From: Acaryochloris marina MBIC11017
GTDB taxonomy: Bacteria > Cyanobacteriota > Cyanobacteriia > Thermosynechococcales > Thermosynechococcaceae
Assembly: GCF_000018105.1 (NCBI RefSeq)
Contig: NC_009925.1
Location: 1,860,001-1,892,000 of the forward strand
DNA: 32,000 nucleotides
Reading direction: 5' to 3'
This document shows, in pieces, positions 19,181 to 32,000 of this stretch. Below the pieces are notes generated by a model. That model was not told the origin of the DNA. It did not search any database and worked only from the letters and a program-made list of their open reading frames with translations. Each line of letters starts with the position of its first letter. The stretch's first letter is position 1. The position numbers were made by a program, and so were the translations under genes.

Positions 19181-22100
19181 CTAGACAATCTGGATCTGGC
19201 CTGCACCCAAATTCGCTTTGTTGAGCAAGGTGCCCACCAGAATCTGCTGAGCTGCACCACTCCCATCCGCATCGTAAAACAGCTCACCGTTAGCTTGATC
19301 GTAGATAAATCGCTGCTCTGCAGTGGTCGCTGCGGCCCCCAGAGCAAACTGCTGAGCGGAGATTAGACCTAGAGGGAGGGTATTGAGCTGGGCAGAACGG
19401 AATGCGATCGCATCTTCACCCACCACAAAATCAGCAATCGTGCCCTTATTGTTAGCGGTGGCCTCTAAAACAAAGAGATCGCTGCCGCCGCCACCCACGA
19501 GATAATCTTGTCCAGCACCACCGGTCAGGGAATCATCTCCATCGCCACCATTTAAGTTATCGTTGCCATAGGATCCCCAGAGGATATCATTGCCCTCATG
19601 GCCGCTGAGGGAGTCCTCGCCATAGGCACCGTTGAGGTGGTCATCCCCTAGGCTTCCCCCTAAATAATCATCTCCATCGCCCCCATCGAGGGTATCCTTG
19701 CCTTCGCCTCCCCAGAGGGTGTCATGGCCTTGATGGCCTCGGAGAAAATCATTTCCACGGTAGCCATCTAGGGTATCGTCTCCCCAGCTTCCCCCCAGAT
19801 AGTCATCGCCATCGCCCCCTTGGAGGCTATCATCGCCATTGGCCCCCCACAGGTGGTCATCTCCTTCGTGACCATTGAGAGTGTCATTCCCATTGCCACC
19901 ATCCAGGCGATCATCCCCTAAACTCCCGCCTAAATAGTCATTACCATCTAGACCCTGGAGGGTATCATTGCCCGCAGCTCCCCAGAGGGTGTCATTCCCA
20001 TCATGACCATTCAGGGAGTCATGACCGTCTCCCCCATCTAAATTATCGTCACCATAGGACCCCCAAAGGGTGTCATCTCCTTCATGACCATTGAGGGTGT
20101 CATTACCCCGATGGCCATTGAGGTGGTCATTGCCTAAACTCCCGCCAAGGTAGTCTTCCCCCTCTCCACCATCGAGGGTGTCCTCACCTTCTCCACCCCA
20201 GAGGGTGTCATTCCCTTGATGCCCCCGGAGAAAATCGTTACCACGGTATCCATCGAGGGTATCGCTGCCCCAACTACCGCCTAGGTAGTCGTTGCCGTCA
20301 CCGCCTTGGAGGCTATCATCCCCATTGGCCCCCCACAGGTGGTCGTCTCCTTCGTGACCATTCAGGGTGTCATTTCCATTGCCGCCATCCAGGCGATCCT
20401 TACCTAAACTCCCCCCTAAGGAATCATTACCTTCTCCCCCATGCAGGGTGTCCTCACCTTCGCCACCCCATAGGGTGTCATCGCCTTGATGGCCGTTTAG
20501 GGAATCATTGCCGCGATAGCCATCCAGGGTATCACTACCCCAGCTACCGCCTAGGTAGTCATCTCCATCTCCACCGATCAGGTTGTCGTCTCCCTCGGCG
20601 CCCCACAGATGGTCATTGCCCTCATGGCCATGGAGGAAGTCATTCCCCTTGCCACCATTGAGGTGGTCATCCCCTAAACTGCCCCCTAAATTGTCATCCC
20701 CCTCTCCCCCATCGAGGGTATCCTTACCTTCGCCACCCCAAAGGGTGTCATTGCCTTGGTGGCCCCGGAGAAAATCATTACCGCGATAGCCATCCAGGGT
20801 ATCACTGCCCCAGCTGCCGCCTAGGTAGTCGTTGCCGTCACCGCCTTGGAGGCTATCATCGCCATTGGCACCCCACAAATGGTCATCTCCTGCATAGCCA
20901 TGGAGAAAGTCATCTCCATCCCCTCCATCCAGCCGATCGTCTCCTGCATGACCTGCTAAATAGTCATCTCCGTCCAGCCCTTTGAGGGTATCATTACCAT
21001 CCCCCCCGTAGAGTTTGTCATCCACGGCTCCACCGGAGCCATTGTCATCAAAGGCCGTCCCTCGAAAAATCAGAGGCAGGGTGTCAATACGAGTCGTACT
21101 AACAGGCACAGGATTGACGGAACCATCCCCTGTGAGCAAAATATTATCGACCGCAACCCAGTCATCTCCATCATTGGTCCCCACTGTATTGATTTGGAAG
21201 ACTAAAAATTGGTAGCCCTCACCAAAATCGATATCCCAAGAGAGGGTTGTCCAATCAAAGTCATCGCCGCCAAAGGTCTGTTGAACTAGGACCTGACGCT
21301 CCATGGGTAATGCACCCGCCTGGTAAGGCCCCTGGTTGGTATTGGCGTTGTTAAAAAACTCGCCATTCACCCCCCACAGACTAATCGTAATTTCGTTATT
21401 TTCTCCAGTGCCGCCTTCCAGATTGCGCAAGTCCAGGCTGAGGGTTTGCATCCCTCGTCGCACCGCACTGTCGTAGATAATTTGTCCAAGATTGGAACGA
21501 CTCGCCGCTTCCTGGGAGAGGACCACGCCCCCGCCTTGACCAATACCAGCATCCCAGGAGACGCCATCAGCTGCGTACCATCCTAAGTTGGCACTCGTAC
21601 TATGGTTGATACCGTCCGTTTTAAAGACTGGATTGACGGAAAAATCGCCATTACCAAACGCATTGACATATTGAGTTGGCGTCACCTCAATGGTTTGCGA
21701 GAGGGAGCGAGTCGCCCCATATTCATCCCAAATCTGTAGGGTAATGTTATGGGAGCCGGCTTTGTCAAAAACATAGCTCGTTTGGCGACCAAAGCGATCC
21801 GCCACATTGTCCCCATCAAAATCCCAGGCATAACTTACAATTCCCCGACTTGGGTTATCGATAAATGTCGAATCTGGATCAAAAGAGGAGCTGGCATCAA
21901 AGCCCATCGCCAGTCCCCCAATGGCTTGACTGGTAAATAGAACCGAGGGGGCTAAGTTGCCAGGGACATCTGAAAACGTATTATTGCCCTGAATCTGAAA
22001 GAAAGAGGGGAAGTCTGGATCCTTAATCGTGATATGGGGCGGTGTCAGGCCAAAATGCTGGTCATTATTGACTAGAGTGCTATCTTTTAGCGAAGACCCC

Positions 22101-24076
22101 ACAAAATCCCTATCAGCATCGTAGGGGACCGCTATACCGGTCTTAAAGCCTTCAATATGCAGATTGATGTATCGCTGCTCTAACGAAGTGTCATTGACAT
22201 GAACCCCTGTGCCAATGGGTTGACCAGAATGAATTAACCCATTGATGAGGTCAACATTACCGCTATACCGTAAGAGCACCCCATTGTGGCGAATATTCCA
22301 CAGGGCAAAATTATCAATTACGGACCGATAATCATGGGCCGTAAAGGTGGGCACACTGATGTTTAACTGGCCATCTTGATTGGTCTTGCGAGCCCAAAGG
22401 CTAATACCCGATTTTGAGTTATAGCTCTGAAAACCACTGAGTTTCCGTAATGGCACCGCCGCTACATCAATCGTACTCTCGTCTGCAGTACCTTTAGCGA
22501 TATCCTGCAAATCCGGTGGCAGAATGTTGACATCGATGGTTTGTGCATCGCGAACGGATTCTGTGCCGGCGTCAAGCCCCAACAGTTCGATGGCAGATCC
22601 AGCGGCACTCACGGCAATATTATCAATGATGGCAACCTGAGCCGCCCCTTGCACCCAATAGCCATCGCCATTAAAGCCAAAATCAAAGAGATTGGTGCGA
22701 GGAGATAAAGGATTAATATCATGGCTGGGGCTGGCATCCCCGGTGGTTTTGATGGTCAGATTGTTGCGCCAAGTGCCAATTTCGTTCCCCGACTCGGCAA
22801 CAATGCCTGCCCCCACCACATCAAAGACGACATTATCTTCTAGGACTGCATGACTATCGTGGTGGACAATCCCCCAACCCGGACTGCCAACGACGGCATT
22901 GCCTTGGGCCACAGCGGGAATGCCATTAATATCCTCAGCACCGGTCCGATGGAAATGGAGGGCATACCGACCTCTGGGATTGGTCCCTGTACCGACGGAA
23001 CCATCCACGTTCTGGCCAGGATCATCGACGATTAAATTCTTATCAGAACGGCCTAAATTATAAAAACCAGCATTGAGCACCTTAACATCAGCATTGTGCA
23101 TAAACATGACGTGTCCACGCTGCTGATTCGGAATTTGATCTGCATTCTCCGTCTCAAACACAACATTGCGGCTGGTATTCGCAATATACAAATTCACCTG
23201 ATCTTGTAATCCGTCAGGCCTTTTATGATCAAATCGGAGAACCGAGTTATCTCCAGTCAAAATATTGTTGTTCGTAAACCGAATTCGATTGCCGTTGATT
23301 TCTGTAATCGTCAGCACTTCATCCTGAAAACGGGTGTTATCGGCATTGGAGCCTCTCCAGTTGTAGGCCGTACCGCCCAAAACAAGCTGATCGCCGACTT
23401 TCCAGCCCAAGGGGCCACTCGCTCCGTCCAGCTTGAGCACCAGCTCGTTATCCCCAGCCATGGGATCCTGCTCTAGAGCCACAAAATCTAATTTTTCGGC
23501 ACCGTAGATTCTGGCTTTACCATGGCTGATCAAACCTCGGCTGAGCTGCCTTGGGTCCCACTGGGTATCGATGGGACTATCACTGGTAAAGGTGATTCGG
23601 GTGGTGACATCGGCTTGGACCGGATTATCTTCCGTACCAATCAGCAATATCCCTGACGGCGAAACAGCAAAGGTATCTAGCAATAGCTGCGTATCTTGAT
23701 CCGAAGAAAATTGGAGGGTGCCATCTACTCGTAGCGTATCAATGCGGGCAGCACTCTCTTGGTCATAGGTAACCTTGACCCCGTGGGCAATCACAACTTT
23801 GGCGTCATCACCAGGGATCTGCCCACCTTCCCAGGTATTGGGGTCAAACCATGATCCATCCCGTATCGCTTTGTGGGTGGCTTGGGAATGGGGGACGAGA
23901 TCCAAAAAAGCTGCGTGCTCATGTTGTTTGCCTGGATTATCTGCATGGGGTTGCCCCATCCCCCCATGAGACATGGGGTGGGCCGTATTTGGTGTATGAG
24001 ACATACCAGAGGTATGTGAAGCACCAGAAGTATGTGCAGTACCCGGTGTGTGTGATGTGTGTTGATGAGTTTGCAT
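19181..24076 (-). CDS. Giant secreted RTX protein: His-rich N-terminus, G8 domain, right-handed beta-helix, PKD domain, jelly-roll-like domain, about 57 RTX nonapeptides
   Basis: The ORF is open to TTG 24124. The first ATG is 24076 (MQTHQHTSH...), and the 48-nt extension would encode the HIP1 palindrome. Domain evidence is in the sub-features. Confidence 0.95.
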   Translation of the reverse strand: MQTHQHTSHTPGTAHTSGASHTSGMSHTPNTAHPMSHGGMGQPHADNPGKQHEHAAFLDLVPHSQATHKAIRDGSWFDPNTWEGGQIPGDDAKVVIAHGVKVTYDQESAARIDTLRVDGTLQFSSDQDTQLLLDTFAVSPSGILLIGTEDNPVQADVTTRITFTSDSPIDTQWDPRQLSRGLISHGKARIYGAEKLDFVALEQDPMAGDNELVLKLDGASGPLGWKVGDQLVLGGTAYNWRGSNADNTRFQDEVLTITEINGNRIRFTNNNILTGDNSVLRFDHKRPDGLQDQVNLYIANTSRNVVFETENADQIPNQQRGHVMFMHNADVKVLNAGFYNLGRSDKNLIVDDPGQNVDGSVGTGTNPRGRYALHFHRTGAEDINGIPAVAQGNAVVGSPGWGIVHHDSHAVLEDNVVFDVVGAGIVAESGNEIGTWRNNLTIKTTGDASPSHDINPLSPRTNLFDFGFNGDGYWVQGAAQVAIIDNIAVSAAGSAIELLGLDAGTESVRDAQTIDVNILPPDLQDIAKGTADESTIDVAAVPLRKLSGFQSYNSKSGISLWARKTNQDGQLNISVPTFTAHDYRSVIDNFALWNIRHNGVLLRYSGNVDLINGLIHSGQPIGTGVHVNDTSLEQRYINLHIEGFKTGIAVPYDADRDFVGSSLKDSTLVNNDQHFGLTPPHITIKDPDFPSFFQIQGNNTFSDVPGNLAPSVLFTSQAIGGLAMGFDASSSFDPDSTFIDNPSRGIVSYAWDFDGDNVADRFGRQTSYVFDKAGSHNITLQIWDEYGATRSLSQTIEVTPTQYVNAFGNGDFSVNPVFKTDGINHSTSANLGWYAADGVSWDAGIGQGGGVVLSQEAASRSNLGQIIYDSAVRRGMQTLSLDLRNLEGGTGENNEITISLWGVNGEFFNNANTNQGPYQAGALPMERQVLVQQTFGGDDFDWTTLSWDIDFGEGYQFLVFQINTVGTNDGDDWVAVDNILLTGDGSVNPVPVSTTRIDTLPLIFRGTAFDDNGSGGAVDDKLYGGDGNDTLKGLDGDDYLAGHAGDDRLDGGDGDDFLHGYAGDDHLWGANGDDSLQGGDGNDYLGGSWGSDTLDGYRGNDFLRGHQGNDTLWGGEGKDTLDGGEGDDNLGGSLGDDHLNGGKGNDFLHGHEGNDHLWGAEGDDNLIGGDGDDYLGGSWGSDTLDGYRGNDSLNGHQGDDTLWGGEGEDTLHGGEGNDSLGGSLGKDRLDGGNGNDTLNGHEGDDHLWGANGDDSLQGGDGNDYLGGSWGSDTLDGYRGNDFLRGHQGNDTLWGGEGEDTLDGGEGEDYLGGSLGNDHLNGHRGNDTLNGHEGDDTLWGSYGDDNLDGGDGHDSLNGHDGNDTLWGAAGNDTLQGLDGNDYLGGSLGDDRLDGGNGNDTLNGHEGDDHLWGANGDDSLQGGDGDDYLGGSWGDDTLDGYRGNDFLRGHQGHDTLWGGEGKDTLDGGDGDDYLGGSLGDDHLNGAYGEDSLSGHEGNDILWGSYGNDNLNGGDGDDSLTGGAGQDYLVGGGGSDLFVLEATANNKGTIADFVVGEDAIAFRSAQLNTLPLGLISAQQFALGAAATTAEQRFIYDQANGELFYDADGSGAAQQILVGTLLNKANLGAGQIQIV
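19476..21016 (-). repeat. Giant 2: about 57 uninterrupted RTX nonapeptides (27-nt period) with a 10-unit (270-nt) higher-order repeat
   Basis: Manual parse from LYGGDGNDT to LVGGGGSDL. At DNA level, 20281-20320 and 20821-20860 are identical 40-mers. Near-identical blocks recur at offsets of 270, 486 and 540 nt (e.g. 19741.. vs 20227.. vs 20767..; 20511.. vs 20781..). Confidence 0.9.
21680..21860 (-). other. Giant 2 domain: PKD domain
   Basis: IVSYAWDFDGDNVADRFGRQTSYVFDKAGSHNITLQIWDEYGATRSLSQTIEVTP (the WDFGDG-type core motif). Confidence 0.75.
21950..23490 (-). other. Giant 2 domain: right-handed parallel beta-helix region (approximate bounds)
   Basis: Successive short beta-helix-like turns, e.g. 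GNAVVGSPGWGIVHHDSHAVLEDNVVFDVVGAGIVAESGNEIGTWRNNLTIKT and IIDNIAVSAAGSAIEL. Confidence 0.55.
23492..23866 (-). other. Giant 2 domain: G8 domain (approximate bounds)
   Basis: DGSWFDPNTWEGGQIPGDDAKVVIAHGVKVTYDQES..IDTLRVDGTLQF..LLLDTFAVSPSGILLIGTEDNP fits the G8 pattern (W..W.gg.vP..gd.V.I..g..v.lD....l..l.v.G.L.f). Confidence 0.65.
23906..24076 (-). repeat. Giant 2: His-rich N-terminal low-complexity segment with five consecutive hexads [S/A]-H-T-[P/S]-[G/N]-x
   Basis: MQTHQHTSHTPGTAHTSGASHTSGMSHTPNTAHPMSHGGMGQPHADNPGKQHEHAAF: 11 His in 57 residues, with His at positions 9, 15, 21, 27 and 33. Confidence 0.8.
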
Positions 24077-24085
24077 AGAAAACTG

Positions 24086-24105
24086 GATCTTGCGATCGCA
24101 AGATC
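24086..24105. repeat. 20-bp perfect palindrome GATCTTGCGATCGCAAGATC built around a HIP1 core, 10 nt upstream of ATG 24076
   Basis: Read directly; the HIP1 octamer is at 24092-24099. Confidence 0.8.
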
Positions 24106-24175
24106 TCCCCCAAAAAAAGATCAAAGTCTGGTCCTACGACGTCAGCGATAGCAACCAGTGAACAAATTTTTTACT

Positions 24176-24220
24176 GCAACAAACCTAGATAAGCCACGAT
24201 TACTTATCTAGGTTTGTTGC
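24176..24220. repeat. Perfect 18-bp inverted repeat GCAACAAACCTAGATAAG / CTTATCTAGGTTTGTTGC with a 9-nt loop
   Basis: Arms at 24176-24193 and 24203-24220, about 100-145 nt upstream of the giant 2 start. Followed on the plus strand by TATATTCTGAATTTCT. Confidence 0.75.
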
Positions 24221-25153
24221 TATATTCTGAATTTCTAAAAAATACTGGGTGAGTTCGGCTCAGAGCAGGAAAATAAAAGCATGGCAACCTGGTAAATACA
24301 AATCCTTAGGAAATCCAAAAATCAAGAAATAGCCAGATAAACTCTTTATATAAATATTAATCTCAAAAATGATGCACCCTGCATTTTGGATCAATTTTTT
24401 CTAAATATTTAGAGAGTTTATTGGTTCTGGCTATGCCTAAATCAGATAAATTTTGAGCCTAAAGAATAGCCCTATACTAGTTATAGTACCCATTTCATGG
24501 CGACAGCTCTACATAAACAACTCGGTCCAACGTATATTTTCTCTATATACATAAAATATACAAATACTCAAACCGAACCACAAAAAGCCAAAATCAAAAA
24601 ATATTTAATTTCTAAATTAACAACAAATACCCTAAAAATATAGACATCCAATAATCACAGCGGAGAAAAAATATTTTTCAGTATAAATATATTTCAGTTA
24701 TTTTTATCCTTAAAAAATGATTCAAATTATACTTATTTTCGATATTTTTTTAAACTAAATACGACCATTCCTTCTCGATGGCAAGGCGCTTTAAAGCAGA
24801 GATCAGGGTTGGCGACTAGATGATTGCCCCAGCCCCCTGCAACGTCATGGCTTATCAGATCCAAATGGCTTAAAAGATCTAAGCTATGAAGAGATTTCTG
24901 GTCTAGAACAGAGATAGGTCACTGGCTAGACATGTTTTAATACCAATTACCCAGCTAGTTGACCTGTATAGCTCGCCGAAAGCATTGAAAATAAGCCAAT
25001 CATTGAAGTCAAACAGTTCATCTCCACATGAAATTGGTATGAGACCATCGGATAGAAACTTCTTTAGGGATAACCAGTCTCATTCAAACAGCAGGTCATC
25101 ACCGCCTTGTTATCAGCTCATATTATGCGTTCAACCTCTAGGAGCTTTGGTGT

Positions 25154-27607
25154 ATGTCTCGTCGTCAGCCATGGCTAGACAGGCAGCTAGCTAAATACCC
25201 ATTTTTGATCCAACGCCGATGGTGGAGACGAGGGTGCATTAGTTTTTGCCTAGGCCTTTTCCTCTGGGTGTCCTGCTCGATGGGGAGTATATCGGCACAG
25301 TTCAATCCCAAACAGCTGGAAGTACCCGATGGCTTTGGGGTGGCCATTCATTTCACCGACCCCAAACCGGGCGAGATGGATCTGCTAGAGGCTTCAGGGG
25401 TTCGTTGGATACGAGCCGATCTGGTGTGGTTACGGACAGAAGTCAAAAAAGGTCAGTACGACTTTTCAGCCTACGATCGACTGCTGGATCAATTAGAGCG
25501 CCATAATCTCCGGGCCATTTTTATCCTCGACTATGGCAACCCCTTATATGATGGCGGTTTTTCCCCACACACCGATGCTGGGCGTCAGGCGTTTGCTCGC
25601 TGGGCTGTGGCTGCCGTCAAGCATTTCCAAGGACGCGGAGTCGTCTGGGAAATGTACAACGAGCCCAACATTTTGCCCTTTTGGAGTCCTCGCCCCAATG
25701 TCCAGGACTATATCAAGCTGGCCAAAACTGTTGGTAAAGCAATTCACCGGGTCTATCCTCAAGAAGTGATTATTGGCCCCGCTCTTGCGGGTAGTGTGAA
25801 TAAGCCCGGTCGCCAGGAATTTTTGGAAGCCTGTTTTCAGGCTGGCTTATTGGAAGACTGGTCTGCTGTTTCCATTCACCCCTACCGAATCACACGACCT
25901 GAAACCGTAACTCGCGACTATCGCCAATTGCGGCTGTTGATCGCCAAATATGCACCGCCTGGCAAGAAAATTCCCATTATTGCCGGGGAATGGGGCTATC
26001 CATCATCGACGGCTTGGCGGCAGGGCAAAGTCATTGATCCGACGACCCAGGCTAAATATTTAGGGCGGCAATGGTTAAACAATCTGGCCAATGAGATTCC
26101 CTTATCCATTTGGTATGACTGGCAAAATAACGGTCCGAAGGCAGAGGATCCAGAGCATAATTATGGCCTGATTGGCTATGCTGACCCCAAGCAGAATCGA
26201 CCGACCTACGAGGTTAAACCCGCCTATCGGGCTGCCCAAGCCCTCAATCAATCCCTAAAAGGCTTTCAGTTCAATAAACGACTCGATGTTGGGCGTGCGG
26301 ATGATTATGTTTTGCTCTTTAACCAGGGCAATCAGGTCAAAATTGCGGCCTGGACAACCGCACAATCACCCCACACAACCGTTATCCCCACCAGTCCTGG
26401 ATCGTTTCGTGCCCTGGATTATCTCGGCCAAAATCCCAAAACCCTGAAAGCGACGACTCAAGGACTGTCTTTATCTCTCACAGATGCTCCTCAATATCTA
26501 ACCCCTACCCAGCCCAACGCCCTCCTGCAACTGGCCGCCGCCTGGGAAACGCTGCCGCTGGAGCAGGTCGTACCGGGCTCTCAAACCATTGACGTGCCTC
26601 TACGCCTCAGAAATCCCCTCTCAACTCCCATTCAAGTGAATACGGGTACCCAAATCGCGACCATTCCCCCTAGACAAACCCAATCCCTGGTAACCACGGT
26701 AACCCCTTCGCGTCAGGGCAAAGCACAGCCTCTGCGCTTAGAGTGGCAGGTTCGAGGCCTTGGTGTCTTGACGCAACGGACGGATCTGCTGCTCACCAAT
26801 CCTTTGACCGCGACCATTTTGCCCATGGGGGCTAACCAGTTAACCGTCGTTCTTCAGAACCCTGCCGGAACGGCTCTGAAAGGGAGAGCAACCCTGACGA
26901 ATCTCCAAGGGTTAGGGGTCACAACCCGAAGCCAACCCATTCAGTTTGCCTCCGGGGAAACCCAGAAATATCTCAAGTTCAAAGCCCGACGCACGCAAAG
27001 TACCTATCAGGCCGGGTTAGAGGTGACAGAAGGGGGGACCCTGCATACCTTTCCACCTCAGCAGTTCAAGACTGTGATTAATTTTGCCGATCTAAACGCA
27101 AAGACGGTGGGTCAGGCGCTGCAAACTATTCCTGGGGGGGATGCGAAGGTGCGATCGCAACAGTCCCTAACCGTGATACCGTCCGCCTCTCGCTATGCAA
27201 CCACTGTGGGCCGCAACGTGCTCAAAATCACCTATCAATTCCAAGCCGGGTGGAAATATCTACACCTACTCCCCACCCGGCAGTACCAATCTCGATTAAG
27301 CATTCAAGGCCGCCCCCAATCTCTGGGACTTTGGATTCACGGAGATGGGAGTGGGAATCAAATTTCTTTACGGTACCAAGATAAAACTGGGCAAATCTTC
27401 CAGCCCAAGAGTCAGGTCATCACCTGGAAAGGATGGCGGTACATTACCTTTGCCTTAGATGGCCAGGATGCCACGGTATGGGGAGGGGCAGCCGATGGGA
27501 TTGTTCACTATCCCATGCAGCTCAATTCCCTGCTCGCCATCGATAATGCCAAGAAACAGGTTACCTCAGGGGAAATTTATGTCGGCCAGCCCACTTTGGT
27601 ATGGTGA
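25154..27607 (+). CDS. Secreted/membrane-anchored clan GH-A (GH5-like) glycoside hydrolase with a ~400-aa unassigned C-terminal region
   Basis: AGGAG lies 9 nt before ATG 25154. N-terminal basic + hydrophobic segment RRWWRRGCISFCLGLFLWVSC. TIM-barrel motifs VVWEMYNEPN (acid/base Glu, about 25645-25670) and IIAGEWGY (nucleophile Glu, about 25982-25999). Confidence 0.8.
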   Translation: MSRRQPWLDRQLAKYPFLIQRRWWRRGCISFCLGLFLWVSCSMGSISAQFNPKQLEVPDGFGVAIHFTDPKPGEMDLLEASGVRWIRADLVWLRTEVKKGQYDFSAYDRLLDQLERHNLRAIFILDYGNPLYDGGFSPHTDAGRQAFARWAVAAVKHFQGRGVVWEMYNEPNILPFWSPRPNVQDYIKLAKTVGKAIHRVYPQEVIIGPALAGSVNKPGRQEFLEACFQAGLLEDWSAVSIHPYRITRPETVTRDYRQLRLLIAKYAPPGKKIPIIAGEWGYPSSTAWRQGKVIDPTTQAKYLGRQWLNNLANEIPLSIWYDWQNNGPKAEDPEHNYGLIGYADPKQNRPTYEVKPAYRAAQALNQSLKGFQFNKRLDVGRADDYVLLFNQGNQVKIAAWTTAQSPHTTVIPTSPGSFRALDYLGQNPKTLKATTQGLSLSLTDAPQYLTPTQPNALLQLAAAWETLPLEQVVPGSQTIDVPLRLRNPLSTPIQVNTGTQIATIPPRQTQSLVTTVTPSRQGKAQPLRLEWQVRGLGVLTQRTDLLLTNPLTATILPMGANQLTVVLQNPAGTALKGRATLTNLQGLGVTTRSQPIQFASGETQKYLKFKARRTQSTYQAGLEVTEGGTLHTFPPQQFKTVINFADLNAKTVGQALQTIPGGDAKVRSQQSLTVIPSASRYATTVGRNVLKITYQFQAGWKYLHLLPTRQYQSRLSIQGRPQSLGLWIHGDGSGNQISLRYQDKTGQIFQPKSQVITWKGWRYITFALDGQDATVWGGAADGIVHYPMQLNSLLAIDNAKKQVTSGEIYVGQPTLVW

Positions 27608-27645
27608 ACCATCGACATACATAAGCACGAAGGTCTTGGATAGGT

Positions 27646-28656
27646 ATGCCCCAAGCAGCCGGACATCCCCCGCAACAACGGATCGAATGGATTGATTATG
27701 CCAAAGGCATCGGCATTTTTCTGGTCGTTCTCGGCCATGTCCTGCGAGGGCTAGGGGCTTCCGTTGGTCAGGGCTATCAGCCCGAACTACGGGCAATGGA
27801 TCAGTGGATCTATGCCTTTCATATGCCTTTATTTTTTTTGCTCTCAGGGTTATTTGCAGACCGTGCCGTCTCTAAACCGCCTCGCAGGTTTCTGATCGAT
27901 CGATTTCAAAAGATTCTCTACCCTTACTTTCTCTGGTCTGCCCTTGTGGGCGCACTCCGCATTCTCTCAGGCCAAAACAAAGGAACGACCCTGCTCCAAT
28001 TTCTCACGGGATTTTGGACGACGATTTATTACCCCATTGATATCTTCTGGTTCTTATTTGCCTTATTTTTAATCTCGACCCTGTTCTATGGCTTAAGAAA
28101 GCTCAAAGTATCCTTGGTGCTACTTCTCTTAGTCTCAAGTGCGCTGTACGGGGTATCGGTGATTTTTCCCCTCTGGATCAGTTGGGATCCTGGGCAACGC
28201 GTTCAAACCTATGGCCTCTATTTTGTGCTGGGGGCCATGGCTCGTGCCTTCCTCATGGCGAAACGTCCTCCTCAAGCCATGGGGGTAGATATCATGGGTA
28301 GCTTCTTAATCCTGACCCTTTGCGTCTATTACCAAGTTCTAGTGACCCCTGTCCCTAACCCAGTCCTAGCCTTGATCGGGGTGTATGGTTGCATATTACT
28401 CGCTCAGTTGCTCGCCCAACAGCAATGGCTACCCATCGTCCAACAGTGGGGCATGGCCTCCCTCCCCATCTATGTCTCCCATACCATCGCCACCGCCACC
28501 ACCCGCATCATCTTGGAAAAAGGGCTTCAGGTCAGCCATCTTTATGTCCATGTTGTTTTGGGGGTGATAGCGGGGTTGTTGCTGCCCATGCTGTTGGTTA
28601 AGGGTCTCGAACGCATCGGTTTCCCCTATTTGTTTACCTTGGCTCATAAAGCCTAG
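27646..28656 (+). CDS. Acyltransferase family 3 (OafA/WecH-like integral-membrane O-acyltransferase)
   Basis: RIEWIDYAKGIGIFLVVLGHV N-terminal signature. About 10 hydrophobic helices. Starts 38 nt after the GH gene. Confidence 0.85.
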   Translation: MPQAAGHPPQQRIEWIDYAKGIGIFLVVLGHVLRGLGASVGQGYQPELRAMDQWIYAFHMPLFFLLSGLFADRAVSKPPRRFLIDRFQKILYPYFLWSALVGALRILSGQNKGTTLLQFLTGFWTTIYYPIDIFWFLFALFLISTLFYGLRKLKVSLVLLLLVSSALYGVSVIFPLWISWDPGQRVQTYGLYFVLGAMARAFLMAKRPPQAMGVDIMGSFLILTLCVYYQVLVTPVPNPVLALIGVYGCILLAQLLAQQQWLPIVQQWGMASLPIYVSHTIATATTRIILEKGLQVSHLYVHVVLGVIAGLLLPMLLVKGLERIGFPYLFTLAHKA

Positions 28657-28662
28657 GCTCGA

Positions 28663-28699
28663 CGGTTCCTCTCCCCTCCGTGCCCGATAGGGAGAACCG
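28663..28699. terminator. Imperfect GC-rich hairpin between convergent genes (CGGTTCCTCTCCC...GGGAGAACCG)
   Basis: Read directly. The stem has bulges and there is no clear T-run. Confidence 0.3.
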
Positions 28700-28700
28700 G

Positions 28701-29939
28701 CTATGACTCTTGGGGATTGGCTGAATTCAAATGTTTGAGCCCCAACCGCAAGGGCCGGATCAGAAAATAGAGAAAATACAGGGGCTTCGGCAAAATGAGA
28801 AAGTCACGATCGTTGACATTGGGTAAACACTTGAGCCAAAAGCCATGAATCGGGCGACGAATATCGAGGATACAGGCAATGCGATCGCGTCTCGTTTCCG
28901 TCATTTGCCAGTGACGAATAAACTTCTGGGGCGTAAAACTTCTGCCTAACGTATTCTCTTGATCAAATAGCCGTTGCGCAAAATCTTGCGCCAGCCGCGA
29001 GCAGCCCGGATGAGCATCAATTTTCCCTTGCACCACCTCTGGCAACTCGGTTCCCAGCACTTGCTGGGTCAGACATAATCCCAGCAGCACCATACGTTCG
29101 CAGCCCATCTGGGCCGCCTGCTGTAAAAATCGCGGCCAATCGCGCCCTGGCGTTTGTTGAATACACTCAGAGACATCACAGATCCATTTGAGTTTTCGCC
29201 AACAATCTTTCGAGCCATGAATGCAGAGATACATCAACAAATCATCTGCCCCAAAACTATAGAAGGTGTGGCCTGAAACCAAAACCGGCTCACGATTATC
29301 CCAAAGATAATCAAACGTAAATTGAGAAGACAAAAATCGTTCTACCGTGAGCGTCTGGTGCAAATCAATCGATACCGAATTTTTGATCAACTGATATTCA
29401 CTTTTAGAATTCCGGAGCGTTAACTCTAAATCCTGATCCAGTAAGTTCCACTCATAAGCCAGTTGGTACCCCTCCACAACCAGCACCTCTATGGTTTTGG
29501 CAAAGTCTAGAGGACTCACCAAAATATCTAAATCACAAAAATGTCGTAGGCTGATGCTGCCGTATACAGAAGCCGCTAATACTGGCCCTTTAAACGGTAA
29601 AGCTCGAATACCGTGAGTTTGTAAGAAATCCAGAATCTTGAGCAGATCTCTAGTCAAGACGGTATTGAAGATGGCAATTTGCTGGACATAAGCCGTTAGA
29701 TCCTTCAGGACGATAGCAGGAATTTGCTCCTTCCCAATCGACTTAACGGATTGATACAGCAGCGTTTGAACACCATGGACATTTGCGAGTCGAACCAAGG
29801 TATGCCAATCCATTGAAGGTTGAAGAAGATGTCGAATTCGCGCTTGCTGATCCCCATCTATCTTCGTACGGCAACACATCCGTAAGAGTTCAACTTCAGG
29901 GCAGTCATTAGCCTTCTGCTCAAGTCCCCCCAATGCCAT
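28701..29939 (-). CDS. Uncharacterised nucleotidyltransferase-family protein (NTP_transf_5-like, Pol-beta-type fold)
   Basis: PFKGPVLAASVYGSISLRHFCDLDILV matches the G[SG]...D.D nucleotidyltransferase signature. The track starts at TTG 29951; ATG 29939 has AAGGA just upstream. Confidence 0.7.
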   Translation of the reverse strand: MALGGLEQKANDCPEVELLRMCCRTKIDGDQQARIRHLLQPSMDWHTLVRLANVHGVQTLLYQSVKSIGKEQIPAIVLKDLTAYVQQIAIFNTVLTRDLLKILDFLQTHGIRALPFKGPVLAASVYGSISLRHFCDLDILVSPLDFAKTIEVLVVEGYQLAYEWNLLDQDLELTLRNSKSEYQLIKNSVSIDLHQTLTVERFLSSQFTFDYLWDNREPVLVSGHTFYSFGADDLLMYLCIHGSKDCWRKLKWICDVSECIQQTPGRDWPRFLQQAAQMGCERMVLLGLCLTQQVLGTELPEVVQGKIDAHPGCSRLAQDFAQRLFDQENTLGRSFTPQKFIRHWQMTETRRDRIACILDIRRPIHGFWLKCLPNVNDRDFLILPKPLYFLYFLIRPLRLGLKHLNSANPQES

Positions 29940-29966
29940 TAAGTCCTTCAATCTCTCACCCTAGGA

Positions 29967-30941
29967 TTAAATATTCCCTTTATAGAGTTTAATAAGCTCT
30001 CTATCCGATAGGATTTTCGTATCTTTTTTTCCTATAAAGTAATAGCCAGATGCAGCATCAAAAACCCCTGATTGTTGGACTAAATATCGATCAAAATATT
30101 GCAAATAAAAGGATGTCAGCCTAGTAAAAATTTTAATCAGCTTACGCAATGCTTTCTGTTTCGTAAAACTGAGCAAAAAGTACTGATAAGACCAGGCTAA
30201 CGCCATACCGGGGCCACCAACTGGACCACTCTCCACCTCCTGGAAGTGACGAAATAGGCGTCGATGTCCTAAGTGGGTAAATCGCGTAAAGTCATAGCGC
30301 CCCATATGCACTTGTTGCATAAAAGGAGTTTCAGCATAAACGAGGCCATTCGATTTGAGTACACGATGCATTTCTGCCACACATCGATAGGGATCCACCA
30401 CATGTTCTAAGACTGCTTGAATAATCACACCATCTATTGACTGATCCGTAAATGGAAGATCGTGAGCATCACAGATTAACTGGGTTCGTTCACTGAAATA
30501 GATATCACTTTCAATCAGTTCAATATTCGATTGACGAACCAGCTCTTCCATCCCTTGCCCCAAATTGCCACAGCCAATCACTAACACCTTGGGATGCTCA
30601 GAATATTGCAATAGCTGCTGCGTAAACTGTTGATAGTTCTGCTTGGCCACAGGATTCACATCAATATTAGGCAGTGCAGCGCTGATGCGAGCTTTGACTC
30701 CACTACCGGTTGACGGGGGCACATGCCCTTCCTCCTGCTCAAACTCGGCAATGGAAAAGATACTGGCGTCTTCATTCAATAGGATGGGAGCACAATTGAC
30801 GACAGGAAAGACCGAAGAACAGTCAGCATTCTGACAAGACAAATGGTGGTCCTGCAGCTCCAGCTGGCCTTTGCAAACCGGGCAGCATAGCAAAGATTGA
30901 GCAACATCAGAAAAACGGAATTGAGAACCCATACTTGTCAT
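29967..30941 (-). CDS. Class I SAM-dependent methyltransferase with an N-terminal Trm112-like zinc-ribbon
   Basis: CPVCKGQLELQDHHLSCQNADC (Cys4 ribbon); motif I KVLVIGCGNLGQG; IDGVIIQAVLEHV. Ends 15 nt upstream of the nucleotidyltransferase gene. Confidence 0.85.
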   Translation of the reverse strand: MTSMGSQFRFSDVAQSLLCCPVCKGQLELQDHHLSCQNADCSSVFPVVNCAPILLNEDASIFSIAEFEQEEGHVPPSTGSGVKARISAALPNIDVNPVAKQNYQQFTQQLLQYSEHPKVLVIGCGNLGQGMEELVRQSNIELIESDIYFSERTQLICDAHDLPFTDQSIDGVIIQAVLEHVVDPYRCVAEMHRVLKSNGLVYAETPFMQQVHMGRYDFTRFTHLGHRRLFRHFQEVESGPVGGPGMALAWSYQYFLLSFTKQKALRKLIKIFTRLTSFYLQYFDRYLVQQSGVFDAASGYYFIGKKDTKILSDRELIKLYKGNI

Positions 30942-31049
30942 TTACATCTGTTGAGATCAGGAGCAGAGTTTATATTACGCGCAGTATCTTCACCATACTC
31001 AACGCTCTGAAATTATTTTATTCTAAAAAATTATTTTATCAACCTCCCT

Positions 31050-32000
31050 TTAAACTAGAGTTGCTAAGGCCTGGTCAACGGCACCAAGGCACACCTCAGG
31101 GGCAAACTTAGTGGCAGCAGACTGCATACCCTGTTCAGCTAAGGTCGAGGCAAGCTGTTGATCATTCAACAACTCATGAATCGCGGCGGCTAAAGCATTC
31201 GCATCCCCTGGGGGGACTAACCGCCCCGACTGCCGATCGGCAATCACTTCCAACATGCCCCCTGCCGCCGTCGCAATCACCGGCTTTTGGGCTAGCTGAC
31301 CTTCAATCGCAATTCTGGCACAAGGTTCAGGTTCAGTAGAGGCATGAATGACAATATCGCAAGCTTTCATCAAAGCCGGGACGTCTTGGCGAAATCCCAA
31401 CCAATGAATTCGATCGGCTAAATCTTCGCCAGCCGCCATTTCTTTGATCATGGCGACATAGTCTTGTTCTCCAAACAAAGCATCGCCCACCAATAACCCA
31501 TGGACATCCGGTAAAGACCGCAACGCTTCAATTAAGACATGTTGGCCTTTCCATGGAGAGAGGCGGCTAAACAGTCCCACCAAGGGTACATTCTCTAGCT
31601 TGAGTTCTTGGCGCACAGCTGTTGCAGCTTCCAGGGTGACCTGATCAAACCGATCCGACTCAATCCCGTCATACATCACTTTCACCAAATTAGGACGACC
31701 ACCCACAGCGATAAAGGCATCAGCCGTTGCCTGTGATGCAACCCAAACTTGAGCGGCCCGGTTATTCGCCAGAGTAATGGCGACACGACGATTCACACCA
31801 CTAAAATGCTTAGCAGTCAGGATATCTCGTAAATGCCAAACTAGCGGCGGCGTCCCGATCAGTGTCGCCAAGCTAGCCGCAATAAACGCTTTTTGAGAAT
31901 TGGCACAAATAAAATCAAATCCTTGAGAGGCTTTAGCAATCTGCTGCGCCATTTGCCACAGCGCTGGAATCGCTTTAAGGGAAGCCAAGCCACTGGATGT
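31050..32000 (-). CDS. GT4-family (group 1) glycosyltransferase, partial (N-terminus lies right of the window)
   Basis: The reading frame is open to nt 32000 (the track M at 31988 is only a TTG). C-terminal Rossmann-domain motifs: HGLLVGD, ASTEPEPCARIAIEGQLAQKPVIATAAGGMLEVI (EX7E-type). Confidence 0.85.
   Translation of the reverse strand, partial: TSSGLASLKAIPALWQMAQQIAKASQGFDFICANSQKAFIAASLATLIGTPPLVWHLRDILTAKHFSGVNRRVAITLANNRAAQVWVASQATADAFIAVGGRPNLVKVMYDGIESDRFDQVTLEAATAVRQELKLENVPLVGLFSRLSPWKGQHVLIEALRSLPDVHGLLVGDALFGEQDYVAMIKEMAAGEDLADRIHWLGFRQDVPALMKACDIVIHASTEPEPCARIAIEGQLAQKPVIATAAGGMLEVIADRQSGRLVPPGDANALAAAIHELLNDQQLASTLAEQGMQSAATKFAPEVCLGAVDQALATLV

What the first reader, a model, noticed from the sequence alone, without database searches (positions are those of the whole stretch)
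19181..32000. G8/beta-helix RTX exoprotein next to a glycan hydrolase / O-acyltransferase / methyltransferase / GT4 locus: candidate secreted polysaccharide-remodelling enzyme
Seen: giant 2 has the order G8, parallel beta-helix, PKD, jelly-roll-like domain, RTX. Divergent from it lies a GH5-like hydrolase plus acyltransferase-3 operon. A convergent nucleotidyltransferase-like / Trm112-ribbon methyltransferase / GT4 operon follows. Established: right-handed beta-helices are the usual fold of polysaccharide lyases, hydrolases and epimerases. The Azotobacter AlgE mannuronan C-5 epimerases are beta-helix plus RTX proteins that act on the polymer outside the cell. G8 plus beta-helix also occurs in the animal hyaluronan-degrading proteins CEMIP and TMEM2. 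Inference: this is an extracellular, Ca-dependent enzyme that trims or edits the exopolysaccharide made or decorated by the neighbouring genes. The substrate and chemistry cannot be read from the sequence.
Basis: partly seen in the sequence, partly recalled or inferred. Interest (0 to 1): 0.62.

Follow-up and report, generated by a model that had tools for sequence, protein, structure and literature searches.

The report
Secreted CEMIP-like glycanase in EPS island
A cyanobacterium (Acaryochloris-like) encodes a large calcium-repeat exoprotein whose enzyme-like core resembles the human hyaluronan-degrading protein TMEM2 and phage capsule depolymerases, and its gene is inherited together with a variable sugar-polymer gene island, so it most likely cuts or trims the cell's own exopolysaccharide.

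Summary
ORF 19181-24076 (-) encodes, in order, G8, a right-handed beta-helix, PKD, a CBM-like beta-sandwich and 57 uninterrupted RTX nonapeptides. It has no Sec signal. Its neighbours are a PslG/GH39-like hydrolase (not typical GH5), an Acyl_transf_3, an NTP_transf_5, a methyltransferase and a GT4.

A confident AF2 model of the beta-helix (pLDDT 88, pTM 0.91) has the TMEM2 ectodomain as its best PDB match (E 8e-16). Phage capsule depolymerases, GH110, GH87, AlgE4/AlgG and GH28 follow. No adhesin appears in the top 50.

The G8 gene is part of the variable glycan island. A strain with a more distant backbone shares both the island and a 93% identical G8 allele. A strain with a 99% identical backbone carries a different island and a 76% allele.

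Rhodobacterales homologues (33-43% identity) lie inside EPS clusters in all five plasmids inspected. Acaryochloris paralogues and about 70% of the cyanobacterial loci lack GT4 or Wza neighbours.

Best reading: a type-I-secreted depolymerase or editing enzyme for the cell's own EPS, functionally like ExsH, PlyB or AlgE but built on a CEMIP-type scaffold. The chemistry is unknown. The family is large (about 3,700 clusters), and I found no study of its bacterial members. I rate it a new variant of a known kind, of moderate interest.

The parts
19181..24076 (-). CDS of the G8 / beta-helix / PKD / CBM-like / RTX exoprotein. It is 1631 aa from M17. The mechanical ORF runs on to a TTG at 24124.
   Evidence: The orthologue P0001 (93% identical) is 1630 aa.
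23900..24076 (-). His/Met-rich N-terminal tail (11 His and 4 Met in 59 residues) with no hydrophobic signal peptide.
   Evidence: the maximum 15-residue Kyte-Doolittle score in the first 105 aa is 0.36. The homologues read also lack Sec signals.
23489..23836 (-). G8 domain (residues 97-212). It forms the first coils of the beta-helix.
   Evidence: Pfam PF10162, 61.9 bits. It is collinear with the TMEM2 G8 segment.
21989..23875 (-). Right-handed parallel beta-helix (about residues 84-712).
   Evidence: AF2 models (pLDDT 88-90, pTM 0.88-0.91). Foldseek results.
22607..23119 (-). Most conserved coils of the beta-helix (residues 336-506), the candidate catalytic or binding groove. Key residues are H338, R386, Y387, H390, H392, H422, S424, E444, E448, N455 and N502.
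   Evidence: Conservation peaks at residues 340-459. The residues are conserved across five prokaryotic lineages. Those from R386 to E448 are also conserved in human TMEM2. Pfam CEMIP_beta-hel covers residues 382-463.
21680..21886 (-). PKD domain (residues 747-815).
   Evidence: Pfam PKD_4 and PKD. PDB collagenase PKD domains match at E 7e-8 to 7e-11.
21131..21580 (-). Beta-sandwich ('jelly-roll') domain resembling a carbohydrate-binding module (residues about 849-998).
   Evidence: Model. Foldseek hits to CBM61 (TMt 0.66), CBM22, PKD-CBM44 (2c26) and SGBP-B.
19460..21007 (-). RTX beta-roll region: 57 consecutive GGxGxDxUx nonapeptides (residues 1040-1555). The DNA has a higher-order repeat of 135/270 nt.
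   Evidence: Pfam HemolysinCabind, E 5e-103. Regex spacing. TRF.
19184..19459 (-). Non-repeat C-terminal tail of 92 aa. It is the presumed uncleaved type-I secretion signal.
   Evidence: Sequence. The region just upstream of this tail, ending about residue 1581, aligns with the C-terminal RTX region of serralysin-type T1SS substrates. The secretion role is inferred.
24077..25153 (.). 1-kb AT-rich divergent intergenic spacer (GC about 35%). It holds a perfect 18-nt inverted repeat (24176-24193 / 24203-24220) and a HIP1-centred hairpin (24086-24105).
   Evidence: There is no ORF of 70 aa or more wholly inside it and no Rfam hit.
25154..27607 (+). Membrane-anchored PslG/GH39-like clan GH-A glycosidase (817 aa) with an uncharacterised C-terminal half.
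   Evidence: PDB 5jvk at 3e-26 and PslG at 2.6e-17. Pfam Cellulase, 28 bits. TM anchor, NEP169 and GEWG278.
27646..28656 (+). Acyl_transf_3 membrane O-acyltransferase.
   Evidence: Pfam PF01757, 121.5 bits. Weak NolL-like match.
28701..29951 (-). NTP_transf_5 (PF14907) uncharacterised nucleotidyltransferase. Its homologue is the gene immediately upstream of G8 in L001-L003.
29967..30941 (-). Class I SAM methyltransferase with an N-terminal Cys4 ribbon.
   Evidence: Pfam Methyltransf_11, 52 bits. The Trm112p match is below threshold.
31050..32000 (-). GT4 glycosyltransferase whose N-terminus is cut by the end of the window. The island continues beyond the window with MT and GT4 genes (one more MT and one more GT4 in L076; L075 shows a further GT4).

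Best explanation
Giant 2 is a type-I-secreted polysaccharide-active enzyme, most likely an endo-depolymerase. It acts outside the cell on the exopolysaccharide or surface glycan built by the adjacent variable glycan island.

Proposed steps, each marked as shown or inferred:
1. The protein has no Sec signal (shown). It is exported C-terminus first through a T1SS encoded elsewhere (inferred from the 57 RTX repeats and the non-repeat C-terminal tail).
2. Extracellular calcium folds the RTX beta-roll (established for RTX proteins in general; inferred here).
3. The N-terminal 650 residues form one long beta-helix whose first coils are the G8 domain, as in TMEM2 (shown by the model and Foldseek).
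4. The central coils carry a constellation conserved across five prokaryotic lineages, most of it also in human TMEM2: H338, RYxxHxH (386-392), H422-x-S424, ExxxE (444-448), N455 and N502. This is the proposed substrate groove and catalytic centre (conservation shown, role inferred).
5. The PKD domain and the CBM-like sandwich hold or space the polymer (inferred).
6. Cleavage sets chain length or releases the polymer. The membrane-anchored PslG-like glycosidase would act in the periplasm and the G8 protein outside the cell, a two-glycanase arrangement like ExoK/ExsH of Sinorhizobium. Acyl and methyl decorations may tune susceptibility (inferred by analogy; PMC1403797).

Whether the chemistry is hydrolysis, beta-elimination, epimerisation or metal-dependent cannot be read from the sequence.
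For: Fold:
- The AF2 beta-helix model has pLDDT 88.4 and pTM 0.91.
- Foldseek against the PDB ranks the TMEM2 ectodomain first (E 8e-16, TMq 0.54). Klebsiella K1/K64 capsule depolymerases, the LKA1 and phi297 tailspikes, GH110, GH87, AlgE4, AlgG, GH28 and the P22 tailspike follow. No autotransporter or adhesin helix appears in the top 50.
- BFVD hits are depolymerases and tailspikes.

Homology:
- Pfam G8 and CEMIP_beta-hel both score above their gathering cut-offs.
- A profile of the beta-helix alone finds only TMEM2 in the PDB (E 1e-5), sharing GRYxxHFH...H...FD..G..ExGxE.

Site conservation:
- Conservation peaks at residues 340-459, with 40 invariant positions out of 120.
- Eleven polar residues are conserved from Cyanobacteria to Rhodobacterales, Haloferax, Croceibacterium and Planctomyces.

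Secretion:
- 57 RTX repeats and no signal peptide.
- Rhodobacterales homologues are annotated as T1SS targets and carry RTX repeats.

Link to the glycan island:
- Gene order is identical in L075/L076.
- Against L003, backbone genes are 93-99% identical but G8 is 76%, NTP_transf_5 and GT4 are 46%, and the PslG-like/Acyl_transf_3 pair is absent. Against L075, backbone genes are only 82-98% identical but G8 is 93% and the whole island is shared at 82-94%.
- In L001-L003 the G8 gene ends a co-directional Wzy-like/GT4/sulfotransferase/GT4/GT4/unknown/NTP_transf_5 array.
- GT4 genes lie within 7.5 kb in 21 of 75 loci, and none lie in the 7.5-10 kb bin.
- Wza, exosortase and GT4 genes lie next to G8 in L043-type loci.
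- Among 116 immediate neighbours, 21 are GT4, Wza, GT2 or NTP_transf_5.
- All five inspected Rhodobacterales plasmid homologues lie inside EPS clusters with GTs, sulfotransferases, GH16, Wza/Wzc, Wzy-like genes and acyltransferases.
Against: - There is no biochemical or genetic evidence for any prokaryotic member. Literature searches found none.
- The closest solved homologue, TMEM2, has no assigned active site, and its intrinsic hyaluronidase activity is disputed (PMC10206443 and PMC10276149 against PMC10474455).
- Co-inheritance with the island could be simple physical hitch-hiking inside a recombined segment.
- Acaryochloris paralogues (52% identity) lie among housekeeping genes: CobN, a histidine kinase and GuaA.
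- About 70% of the cyanobacterial loci show no GT4 or Wza gene within 10 kb.
- More distant G8 proteins lie in sugar-uptake or unrelated contexts.
- No T1SS genes are in the window.
- TM-scores to enzymes other than TMEM2 are low (0.2-0.35), as is usual for generic beta-helix matches.
Confidence: 0.6

Rival explanations
1. The protein is a non-catalytic surface protein. The beta-helix, PKD and CBM-like domains would act as a lectin-like module that binds the cell's own glycan. The long RTX beta-roll would build an S-layer-like or adhesive coat, as in cyanobacterial RTX surface proteins.
For: The RTX block is unusually long and regular, with 57 repeats. TMEM2, the nearest structural relative, lacked activity in two studies and has no assigned active site (PMC10206443, PMC10276149). 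Family members carry adhesin-type accessory modules such as PA14, cadherin-like, VCBS and LamG. An allele that tracks the glycan island is equally expected for a specific glycan binder.
Against: The strongest conservation is a compact set of His, Arg, Tyr, Glu and Asn residues in the central coils, kept from archaea to humans. That pattern is more typical of a catalytic centre than of a binding face that should change with the glycan. No adhesin beta-helix appears among the top 50 PDB matches. TMEM2 ectodomain activity was reported with purified protein (PMC10474455).
Confidence: 0.15
2. The protein is a secreted glycanase aimed at foreign polysaccharides, for nutrient scavenging or for attacking the sheaths and biofilms of competitors. 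Its position next to the EPS island would be incidental.
For: The family is large and has several paralogues per genome. The Acaryochloris paralogues lie among housekeeping genes. Distant members lie beside sugar ABC transporters, NagZ or TonB-dependent receptors. The same window carries another RTX exoenzyme that looks like a phosphate scavenger. About 70% of loci lack GT4 or Wza neighbours.
Against: This particular copy lies inside the variable region, and its allele changes together with the island. In L001-L003 it is the last gene of a co-directional glycan array. All five Rhodobacterales homologues are embedded in EPS biosynthesis clusters, not catabolic ones. Glycan-synthesis genes are enriched among immediate neighbours.
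Confidence: 0.15
3. The protein is a non-cleaving editing enzyme. It would work like the AlgE enzymes, as a secreted C-5 epimerase or another in-polymer modifier of a uronic-acid-containing EPS.
For: The architecture, a beta-helix followed by RTX modules, is the same as in AlgE1-7. AlgE4 and AlgG appear among the Foldseek matches at E 6e-5 to 1.5e-4.
Against: AlgE4 ranks only 35th, with TMq 0.24. The AlgE/AlgG catalytic motif YG(F/I)DPH(D/E) is absent, and there is no DPH anywhere in the protein. No uronic-acid pathway genes were seen in the island. The better-ranked matches are all depolymerases.
Confidence: 0.1

Closest known systems
TMEM2 (CEMIP2) / CEMIP (HYBID, KIAA1199), the animal G8-beta-helix proteins implicated in hyaluronan depolymerisation
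   Same: The G8 domain forms the start of one continuous right-handed beta-helix. Pfam G8 and CEMIP_beta-hel both score above threshold. TMEM2 is the best PDB structural match (8c6i, E 8e-16, TMq 0.54). The two share the motif GRYxxHFH...H...FD..G..ExGxE. Both are extracellular.
   Different: Sequence identity is only about 12%. The lectin-like (GG) domains inserted in and following the TMEM2 helix are absent: the alignment jumps over TMEM2 residues about 162-336, and there is no Pfam hit for them. This protein has PKD, a CBM-like domain and RTX instead, and uses type-I rather than Sec/ER export. Its substrate is presumably a bacterial EPS, not hyaluronan.
Azotobacter vinelandii AlgE1-7 mannuronan C-5 epimerases
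   Same: An N-terminal beta-helix catalytic module is followed by RTX modules. The proteins are secreted without a signal peptide and act on the producer's own exopolysaccharide outside the cell (established knowledge). The fold match is weak (2pyg, E 5.6e-5).
   Different: The beta-helix belongs to a different family. There is no YG(F/I)DPH(D/E) motif and no alginate genes nearby. AlgE proteins have no G8, PKD or CBM-like domain.
Rhizobial type-I-secreted EPS glycanases: ExsH (with ExoK) of Sinorhizobium meliloti and PlyA/PlyB of Rhizobium leguminosarum
   Same: These are extracellular depolymerases of the producer's own EPS. They are exported by a T1SS (PrsDE), encoded with or near EPS genes, and work alongside a second glycanase. 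Acyl decorations modulate cleavage (PMC1403797). The Rhodobacterales G8 loci even contain GH16 genes next to the G8 gene.
   Different: ExsH and ExoK have GH16 catalytic domains, not a G8 beta-helix. No sequence relationship was tested or found.
Phage capsule/EPS depolymerases and tailspikes (Klebsiella K1 lyase 7w1c, K64-1 S2-4 9k4a, LKA1 gp49, P22 TSP)
   Same: They share the beta-helix fold with a substrate groove. They are the next-best structural matches (E 1e-10 to 1e-8; BFVD).
   Different: No sequence homology was found: PHROGs gave 0 hits, and tblastn against phages gave only two weak partial hits. The window protein is monomer-type and modular, not a trimeric virion protein.
PslG (GH39) of Pseudomonas aeruginosa (applies to the neighbouring gene 25154-27607)
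   Same: The catalytic domain is sequence-similar (E 2.6e-17). It has an N-terminal membrane anchor and Glu-bearing NEP and GEWG motifs at nearly the same positions as the PslG catalytic glutamates (the PslG residue numbers are from memory). It is encoded within an EPS locus.
   Different: It is twice as long (817 aa) with an uncharacterised C-terminal half. Other Psl genes are absent.

Membership tests
G8 / CEMIP-type beta-helix superfamily (TMEM2, CEMIP, PKHD1-like) | G8 domain HMM match above the curated threshold | tested here: met
   PF10162 scores 61.9 bits against a cut-off of 22.9, residues 97-212.
G8 / CEMIP-type beta-helix superfamily (TMEM2, CEMIP, PKHD1-like) | CEMIP beta-helix HMM match above the curated threshold | tested here: met
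   PF24606 scores 34.7 bits against 27.3, residues 382-463. A beta-helix-only profile hits only TMEM2 in the PDB, E 1e-5.
G8 / CEMIP-type beta-helix superfamily (TMEM2, CEMIP, PKHD1-like) | 3D similarity: the G8 domain is continuous with a long right-handed beta-helix | tested here: met
   Foldseek top hit is 8c6i (TMEM2 ectodomain), E 8.1e-16, TMq 0.54. The model has pLDDT 88.4.
CEMIP/TMEM2 proper (animal hyaluronan depolymerisation proteins) | Lectin-like GG domains inserted in and following the helix; these carry the mutations that abolish HA degradation | tested here: not met
   No such Pfam domain is found. The alignment to TMEM2 skips chain residues about 162-336. PKD and a CBM-like domain are present instead.
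CEMIP/TMEM2 proper (animal hyaluronan depolymerisation proteins) | Hyaluronan depolymerising activity | not testable with these tools
   This needs biochemistry. It is also disputed for TMEM2 itself (PMC10206443, PMC10276149, PMC10474455).
AlgE-type mannuronan C-5 epimerases | Catalytic A-module motif YG(F/I)DPH(D/E) | tested here: not met
   A regex search finds no DPH anywhere in the protein.
AlgE-type mannuronan C-5 epimerases | Beta-helix A-module followed by RTX R-modules | tested here: met
   The architecture is met, but the fold match to AlgE4 is only rank 35, E 5.6e-5, TMq 0.24.
RTX type-I secretion substrates | Tandem GGxGxDxUx nonapeptides near the C-terminus | tested here: met
   There are 57 consecutive repeats with exact 9-residue spacing. 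HemolysinCabind scores E 5e-103.
RTX type-I secretion substrates | No N-terminal Sec/Tat signal peptide | tested here: met
   There is no hydrophobic segment in the first 105 aa. The same holds for the four homologues read.
RTX type-I secretion substrates | Cognate ABC/MFP/OMP exporter, and actual secretion | tested here: inconclusive
   No T1SS genes lie in the 32-kb window. The only ABC gene is a 226-aa soluble ATPase. The exporter could be encoded elsewhere. Secretion itself is not testable here.
EPS-locus glycan-processing enzymes (functional class: PslG, ExoK/ExsH, PlyB, AlgL) | Encoded within or next to, and inherited with, an EPS biosynthesis cluster | tested here: met
   This is not universal for the family.
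EPS-locus glycan-processing enzymes (functional class: PslG, ExoK/ExsH, PlyB, AlgL) | Cleaves or modifies the cognate polymer | not testable with these tools
   This needs enzyme assays and knockouts.
CAZy GH/PL families with a beta-helix fold (GH28, GH49, GH55, GH87, GH110, PL1/3/6/9) | Sequence-level family membership | tested here: not met
   No Pfam GH or PL family matches the beta-helix at E <= 0.01. The single-sequence PDB search returns only PKD hits. dbCAN was not available.
PslG/GH39-like clan GH-A hydrolases (neighbouring gene 25154-27607) | Homology to the PslG catalytic domain, with acid/base (NEP) and nucleophile Glu motifs | tested here: met
   PslG 4zn2 matches at E 2.6e-17 and 5jvk at 2.9e-26. 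NEP is at 169 and GEWG at 278, with an N-terminal TM anchor.

The most novel reading that the evidence does not exclude
The G8 beta-helix may be an ancient glycan-cleaving catalytic module, possibly metal-dependent. Its active site would be the surface His cluster plus Glu pair: H338, RYxxHxH, H422-x-S/T and ExxxE. These residues are conserved in bacterial and archaeal members, and the stretch from RYxxHxH to ExxxE is also conserved in human TMEM2; by extension the same would hold for CEMIP and PKHD1-like proteins. The prokaryotic members encoded in EPS islands, such as this one, would then be specificity-matched depolymerases of their producer's own sulfated, methylated or acylated EPS. They would define a new carbohydrate-active enzyme family. 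They would also offer a tractable bacterial system to settle where, and whether, TMEM2 and CEMIP catalyse.
Probability: 0.3. Interest if true: 0.75.

Novelty: new variant of a known kind. Interest (0 to 1): 0.5.

Why it matters
There are three reasons.

1. **It assigns a testable role to a large family.** The family has about 3,700 clusters at 50% identity. I found no study of its prokaryotic members, which databases label only 'G8 domain-containing protein'.

2. **It bears on a dispute in animal biology.** The family is the prokaryotic counterpart of TMEM2 and CEMIP, whose catalytic competence and active site are contested. The residue set conserved across kingdoms gives concrete mutagenesis targets. 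A bacterial enzyme with its natural substrate encoded next door is much easier to test.

3. **It informs cyanobacterial and roseobacter EPS biology.** It suggests that variable EPS islands carry their own matched, secreted glycanase. That is relevant to biofilm and sheath turnover, aggregate formation, marine carbon export and phage-receptor diversification.

Tried and rejected
- **PDB sequence searches.** The single-sequence search with the N-terminal 992 aa, and the full-length profile A1, returned essentially only PKD hits. TMEM2 reached only E 0.1. A beta-helix-only profile was needed.
- **Foldseek with the 941-aa multi-domain model.** TM-scores were uninterpretably low, and TMEM2 was not in the top 50. 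I repeated the search with the beta-helix alone.
- **Phage origin.** PHROGs gave 0 hits. tblastn against 50,697 phage records gave two weak partial hits. I rejected a phage origin.
- **AlgE membership.** The motif is absent, so I rejected it.
- **RNA and small genes.** Rfam found nothing in the whole window. No ORF of 70 aa or more lies wholly inside the 1-kb spacer.
- **Extending the island beyond the window.** Exact-protein look-up failed because the contigs end 3.4 kb further on.
- **The 596-aa island protein of L001-L003.** It has no Pfam or PDB match.
- **Literature.** Searches for bacterial or cyanobacterial G8 proteins found no characterisation.
- **Divergence pattern between the window and L003 alleles.** Divergence is higher in the C-terminal coils, PKD and CBM-like domain. 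This mirrors family-wide constraint, so I do not use it as evidence for specificity evolution.
- **3D clustering of conserved residues.** This could not be measured because model coordinates are not exposed to the sandbox.

Full report
**1. What is in the sequence**

The window comes from a cyanobacterium. It carries SbtA, and its closest named relatives are Acaryochloris.

The ORF at 19181-24124 (-) most likely starts at the ATG at 24076, because the 93% identical orthologue P0001 is 1630 aa. Pfam finds these domains:
- G8 at residues 97-212 (61.9 bits against a cut-off of 22.9).
- CEMIP_beta-hel at residues 382-463 (34.7 bits against 27.3).
- PKD at residues 747-815.
- HemolysinCabind at E 5e-103.

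The RTX block is 57 uninterrupted nonapeptides at exact 9-residue spacing (residues 1040-1555), followed by a 92-aa non-repeat tail. Its DNA has a 135/270-nt super-repeat. There is no hydrophobic N-terminal signal. The first about 60 residues are rich in His and Met instead. The same is true of the four homologues I read.

- The '+' pair is a membrane-anchored PslG/GH39-like clan GH-A glycosidase and an Acyl_transf_3. The glycosidase matches PDB 5jvk at 3e-26 and PslG at 2.6e-17, and has NEP at 169 and GEWG at 278.
- The '-' array is NTP_transf_5, a SAM methyltransferase and a GT4. The methyltransferase has a Cys4 ribbon, with a sub-threshold Trm112 match. The GT4 gene is cut by the end of the window.

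**2. Structure**

I built AF2 models from a 45-sequence alignment. Residues 60-1000 gave pLDDT 90.2 and pTM 0.88. The beta-helix alone gave pLDDT 88.4 and pTM 0.91. G8 is simply the first part of one long right-handed beta-helix. PKD and a beta-sandwich follow.

Foldseek with the multi-domain model gave depolymerase and tailspike hits for the helix and CBM hits for the sandwich (CBM61 TMt 0.66, CBM22, PKD-CBM44), but the global TM-scores were meaningless.

With the helix alone, the ranking was:
- The TMEM2 ectodomain 8c6i (E 8.1e-16, TMq 0.54) was clearly first.
- Klebsiella capsule depolymerases and lyases, the LKA1 and phi297 tailspikes, GH110, GH87, AlgE4 (rank 35), AlgG, GH28 and the P22 tailspike followed.
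- No adhesin-type helix was in the top 50.

BFVD gave the same picture.

**3. The family and its conserved site**

The 941-aa N-terminal module has at least 1008 relatives at about 50% identity over its full length. The named hits are all cyanobacterial. Their C-terminal modules are interchangeable: RTX, PA14, DUF4347, DUF4114, cadherin-like, LamG and CBM6.

An exhaustive phmmer search with the helix finds 3,747 clusters at 50% identity (1,575 with E <= 1e-30).

Conservation peaks at ORF residues 340-459, with 40 invariant columns out of 120. A helix-only profile hits just one PDB sequence, TMEM2 (E 1e-5). It gives three collinear segments and the shared motif GRYxxHFH...H...FD..G..ExGxE.

I aligned the window protein with Rhodobacterales, Haloferax, Croceibacterium and Planctomyces homologues. 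H338, R386, Y387, H390, H392, H422, S/T424, E444, E448, N455 and N502 are kept throughout. In the ALHFHR strand the hydrophobic residues alternate with the histidines. The histidines should therefore face outward.

This constellation is the best candidate for an active site. It hints at a Glu acid/base pair with a His cluster that could bind a metal or an anionic sugar. No active site has been assigned in TMEM2 (PMC10206443), and I found no mapping of catalytic residues in PMC10474455.

**4. Genomic context: the key result**

A related strain (L075/L076) has exactly the same gene order: GT4, MT, GT4, MT, NTP_transf_5 / Acyl_transf_3, PslG-like / G8 / ABC, OTCase and so on. L075 shows one further GT4 gene upstream.

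The next Acaryochloris relatives (L001-L003) share the backbone flank but carry a different island. It reads Wzy-like, GT4, sulfotransferase, GT4, GT4, a 596-aa unknown protein, NTP_transf_5 and then G8, all co-directional. It has no PslG-like or Acyl_transf_3 gene.

Amino-acid identities to the window are:

| Gene | L003 | L075 |
|---|---|---|
| SbtA | 99.4% | 91.6% |
| Aminotransferase | 99.3% | 97.1% |
| Rhodanese | 93.6% | 82.2% |
| OTCase | 99.4% | 95.7% |
| G8 module | 75.5% | 93.1% |
| NTP_transf_5 | 46% | 89% |
| GT4 | 46% | 94% |
| PslG-like / Acyl_transf_3 | absent | 89% / 82% |

At the DNA level the backbone is 91% identical to L003 and about 81% identical to L075, whereas the G8 gene is 71% identical to L003 and 85% to L075.

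The G8 allele therefore belongs to the variable glycan island and moves with it, not with the backbone. Genes inside capsule or O-antigen-like variable regions usually show this pattern. Hitch-hiking through physical linkage cannot be excluded.

**5. Context across the family**

In 74 genome loci plus the window, the only gene family that recurs broadly near G8 is GT4. It occurs in 21 loci, with 38 genes, all within 7.5 kb. None lies in the 7.5-10 kb bin, even though that bin holds 193 kb of sequence.

A Wza-type exporter abuts the G8 gene in 7-9 loci, followed by an exosortase and GT4 genes. Chroococcus and Phormidesmis loci have runs of GT4 genes.

Of 116 immediate neighbours, 8 are GT4, 7 are Wza, 3 are GT2 and 3 are NTP_transf_5. 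The other frequent class, 10 Ser/Thr kinases, appears largely confined to the Coleofasciculus lineage, where a kinase-like neighbour recurs in seven loci.

Independent support comes from another phylum. tblastn against plasmids finds Rhodobacterales homologues at 33-43% identity over 59-93% of the helix. All five that I inspected lie inside EPS clusters. These clusters hold glycosyltransferases, sulfotransferases, GH16, Wza/Wzc, O-antigen-ligase-like genes, acyltransferases and methyltransferases. The five are Leisingera, Ruegeria, Rhodobacteraceae S2214, Salipiger and Antarctobacter. Two of them also have the G8, beta-helix and RTX architecture.

There are counter-examples.
- Acaryochloris paralogues (52% identity) lie among CobN, histidine-kinase and GuaA genes.
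- About 70% of cyanobacterial loci show no GT4 or Wza gene within 10 kb.
- Distant G8 proteins (24-27% identity) lie by sugar ABC transporters and NagZ, by a TonB receptor, or in unrelated contexts.

The association is therefore recurrent and cross-phylum, but it is not obligatory for the whole family.

**6. Mechanism I commit to (confidence about 0.6)**

The protein is a Sec-independent, type-I-secreted exoenzyme folded by calcium. Its TMEM2-type beta-helix groove acts on the polymer made by the adjacent island, assisted by the PKD and CBM-like domains. Most likely it cleaves the polymer. It works outside the cell, while the membrane-anchored PslG-like glycosidase works in the periplasm.

The closest functional precedents are as follows.
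- ExoK and ExsH of S. meliloti, and PlyA/PlyB of R. leguminosarum. ExsH, PlyA and PlyB are type-I-secreted glycanases that act on the producer's own EPS; ExoK is the second glycanase that acts alongside ExsH. Acyl groups modulate their cleavage (PMC1403797).
- The AlgE epimerases, which are the closest architectural precedent.

Shown here are the domain order, the fold, the homology to TMEM2, the conservation pattern, the absence of a signal peptide, and the co-inheritance and recurrence of glycan context. Inferred are secretion, catalysis, the substrate and the biological role.

**7. Rivals**

- A non-catalytic glycan-binding or S-layer-like surface protein (0.15).
- A glycanase aimed at foreign polymers, with incidental linkage to the island (0.15).
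- An AlgE-like non-cleaving editor (0.1). The AlgE motif is absent and the fold rank is low.

**8. Novelty and verdict**

Databases already label these proteins 'G8 domain-containing', so the architecture is not unseen. I found no functional study of any prokaryotic member.

The kind of system is known: a secreted enzyme that processes the producer's own EPS and is encoded with the EPS genes. The scaffold, a CEMIP/TMEM2-type G8 beta-helix, is a new variant.

Interest is moderate (0.5). A specialist would not be surprised by 'a beta-helix with RTX next to GT genes means a glycanase'. Two things give it real value:
- the residue set conserved across kingdoms;
- a natural substrate encoded next door, which makes the disputed TMEM2/CEMIP catalytic question testable in bacteria.

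Noticed in passing
window 3708-11519 (-): The other giant gene (2603 aa) combines phytase-like, choice-of-anchor I, endonuclease/exonuclease/phosphatase and 5'-nucleotidase C domains with RTX repeats. It looks like a secreted multi-phosphoesterase, possibly for phosphate scavenging. It is conserved in L003 and L075.
   Followed up: no
window 23900-24076 (-); homologues P0013, P0026, P0030, P0062: The G8 family has His/Met-rich N-terminal tails (11 His and 4 Met in 59 residues here) before a conserved 'HxDxPxKxxEH..L.DLVP' helix. No homologue I read has a Sec signal, including those without RTX. Possible metal binding, and the export route of the non-RTX members, are unexplained.
   Followed up: partly
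window 24077-25153: The 1-kb divergent spacer is AT-rich (about 35% GC). It has a perfect 18-nt inverted repeat (24176-24193 / 24203-24220) about 100 nt upstream of the G8 start. A HIP1-centred hairpin (24086-24105) lies just before the ATG. It has no Rfam hit and no ORF of 70 aa or more wholly inside it. The spacer aligns with L075 up to 24925.
   Followed up: partly
L001 6307-8097 and L003 4732-6519: A conserved protein of about 596 aa lies between the GT4 genes and NTP_transf_5 in the alternative glycan island. It has no Pfam or PDB sequence match. It occupies the place where the window has the PslG-like/Acyl_transf_3 pair.
   Followed up: partly
window about 17800-24100 compared with L003 and L075: There is a recombination mosaic. 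Nucleotide identity to L003 drops from 91% (9997-17803) to 76% and then 71% from about 18094 onward, and is lost upstream of 23913. Identity to L075 stays at 80-85% throughout. One boundary of the variable island therefore lies near the OTCase/ABC junction.
   Followed up: yes
L079-L083 (Rhodobacterales plasmids): Roseobacter-group plasmids carry sulfated-EPS-type clusters with sulfotransferases, GH16, Wza/Wzc and a Wzy-like gene. A G8-beta-helix protein lies at the centre of each, with RTX, LamG or PA14 appendages.
   Followed up: partly
L043 14059-21680 (also L040, L044, L047, L068): In a Leptolyngbya/Phormidesmis-type clade the G8 gene is convergent with a Wza-like exporter. In L043 an exosortase (EpsH family) and two GT4 genes follow, which suggests a PEP-CTERM/exosortase-type EPS locus.
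   Followed up: partly
window 18476-19156 (+): A 226-aa soluble ABC ATPase lies directly downstream of the G8 gene. It is conserved next to it in L002, L003 and L075 (95-98% identity). It has no fused membrane domain, so it is not a type-I secretion ABC exporter. From the sequence it looks like an ECF/CbiO-type ATPase, which is my inference.
   Followed up: no
window 2751-3497 (-): A 248-aa ORF has no Pfam match.
   Followed up: no
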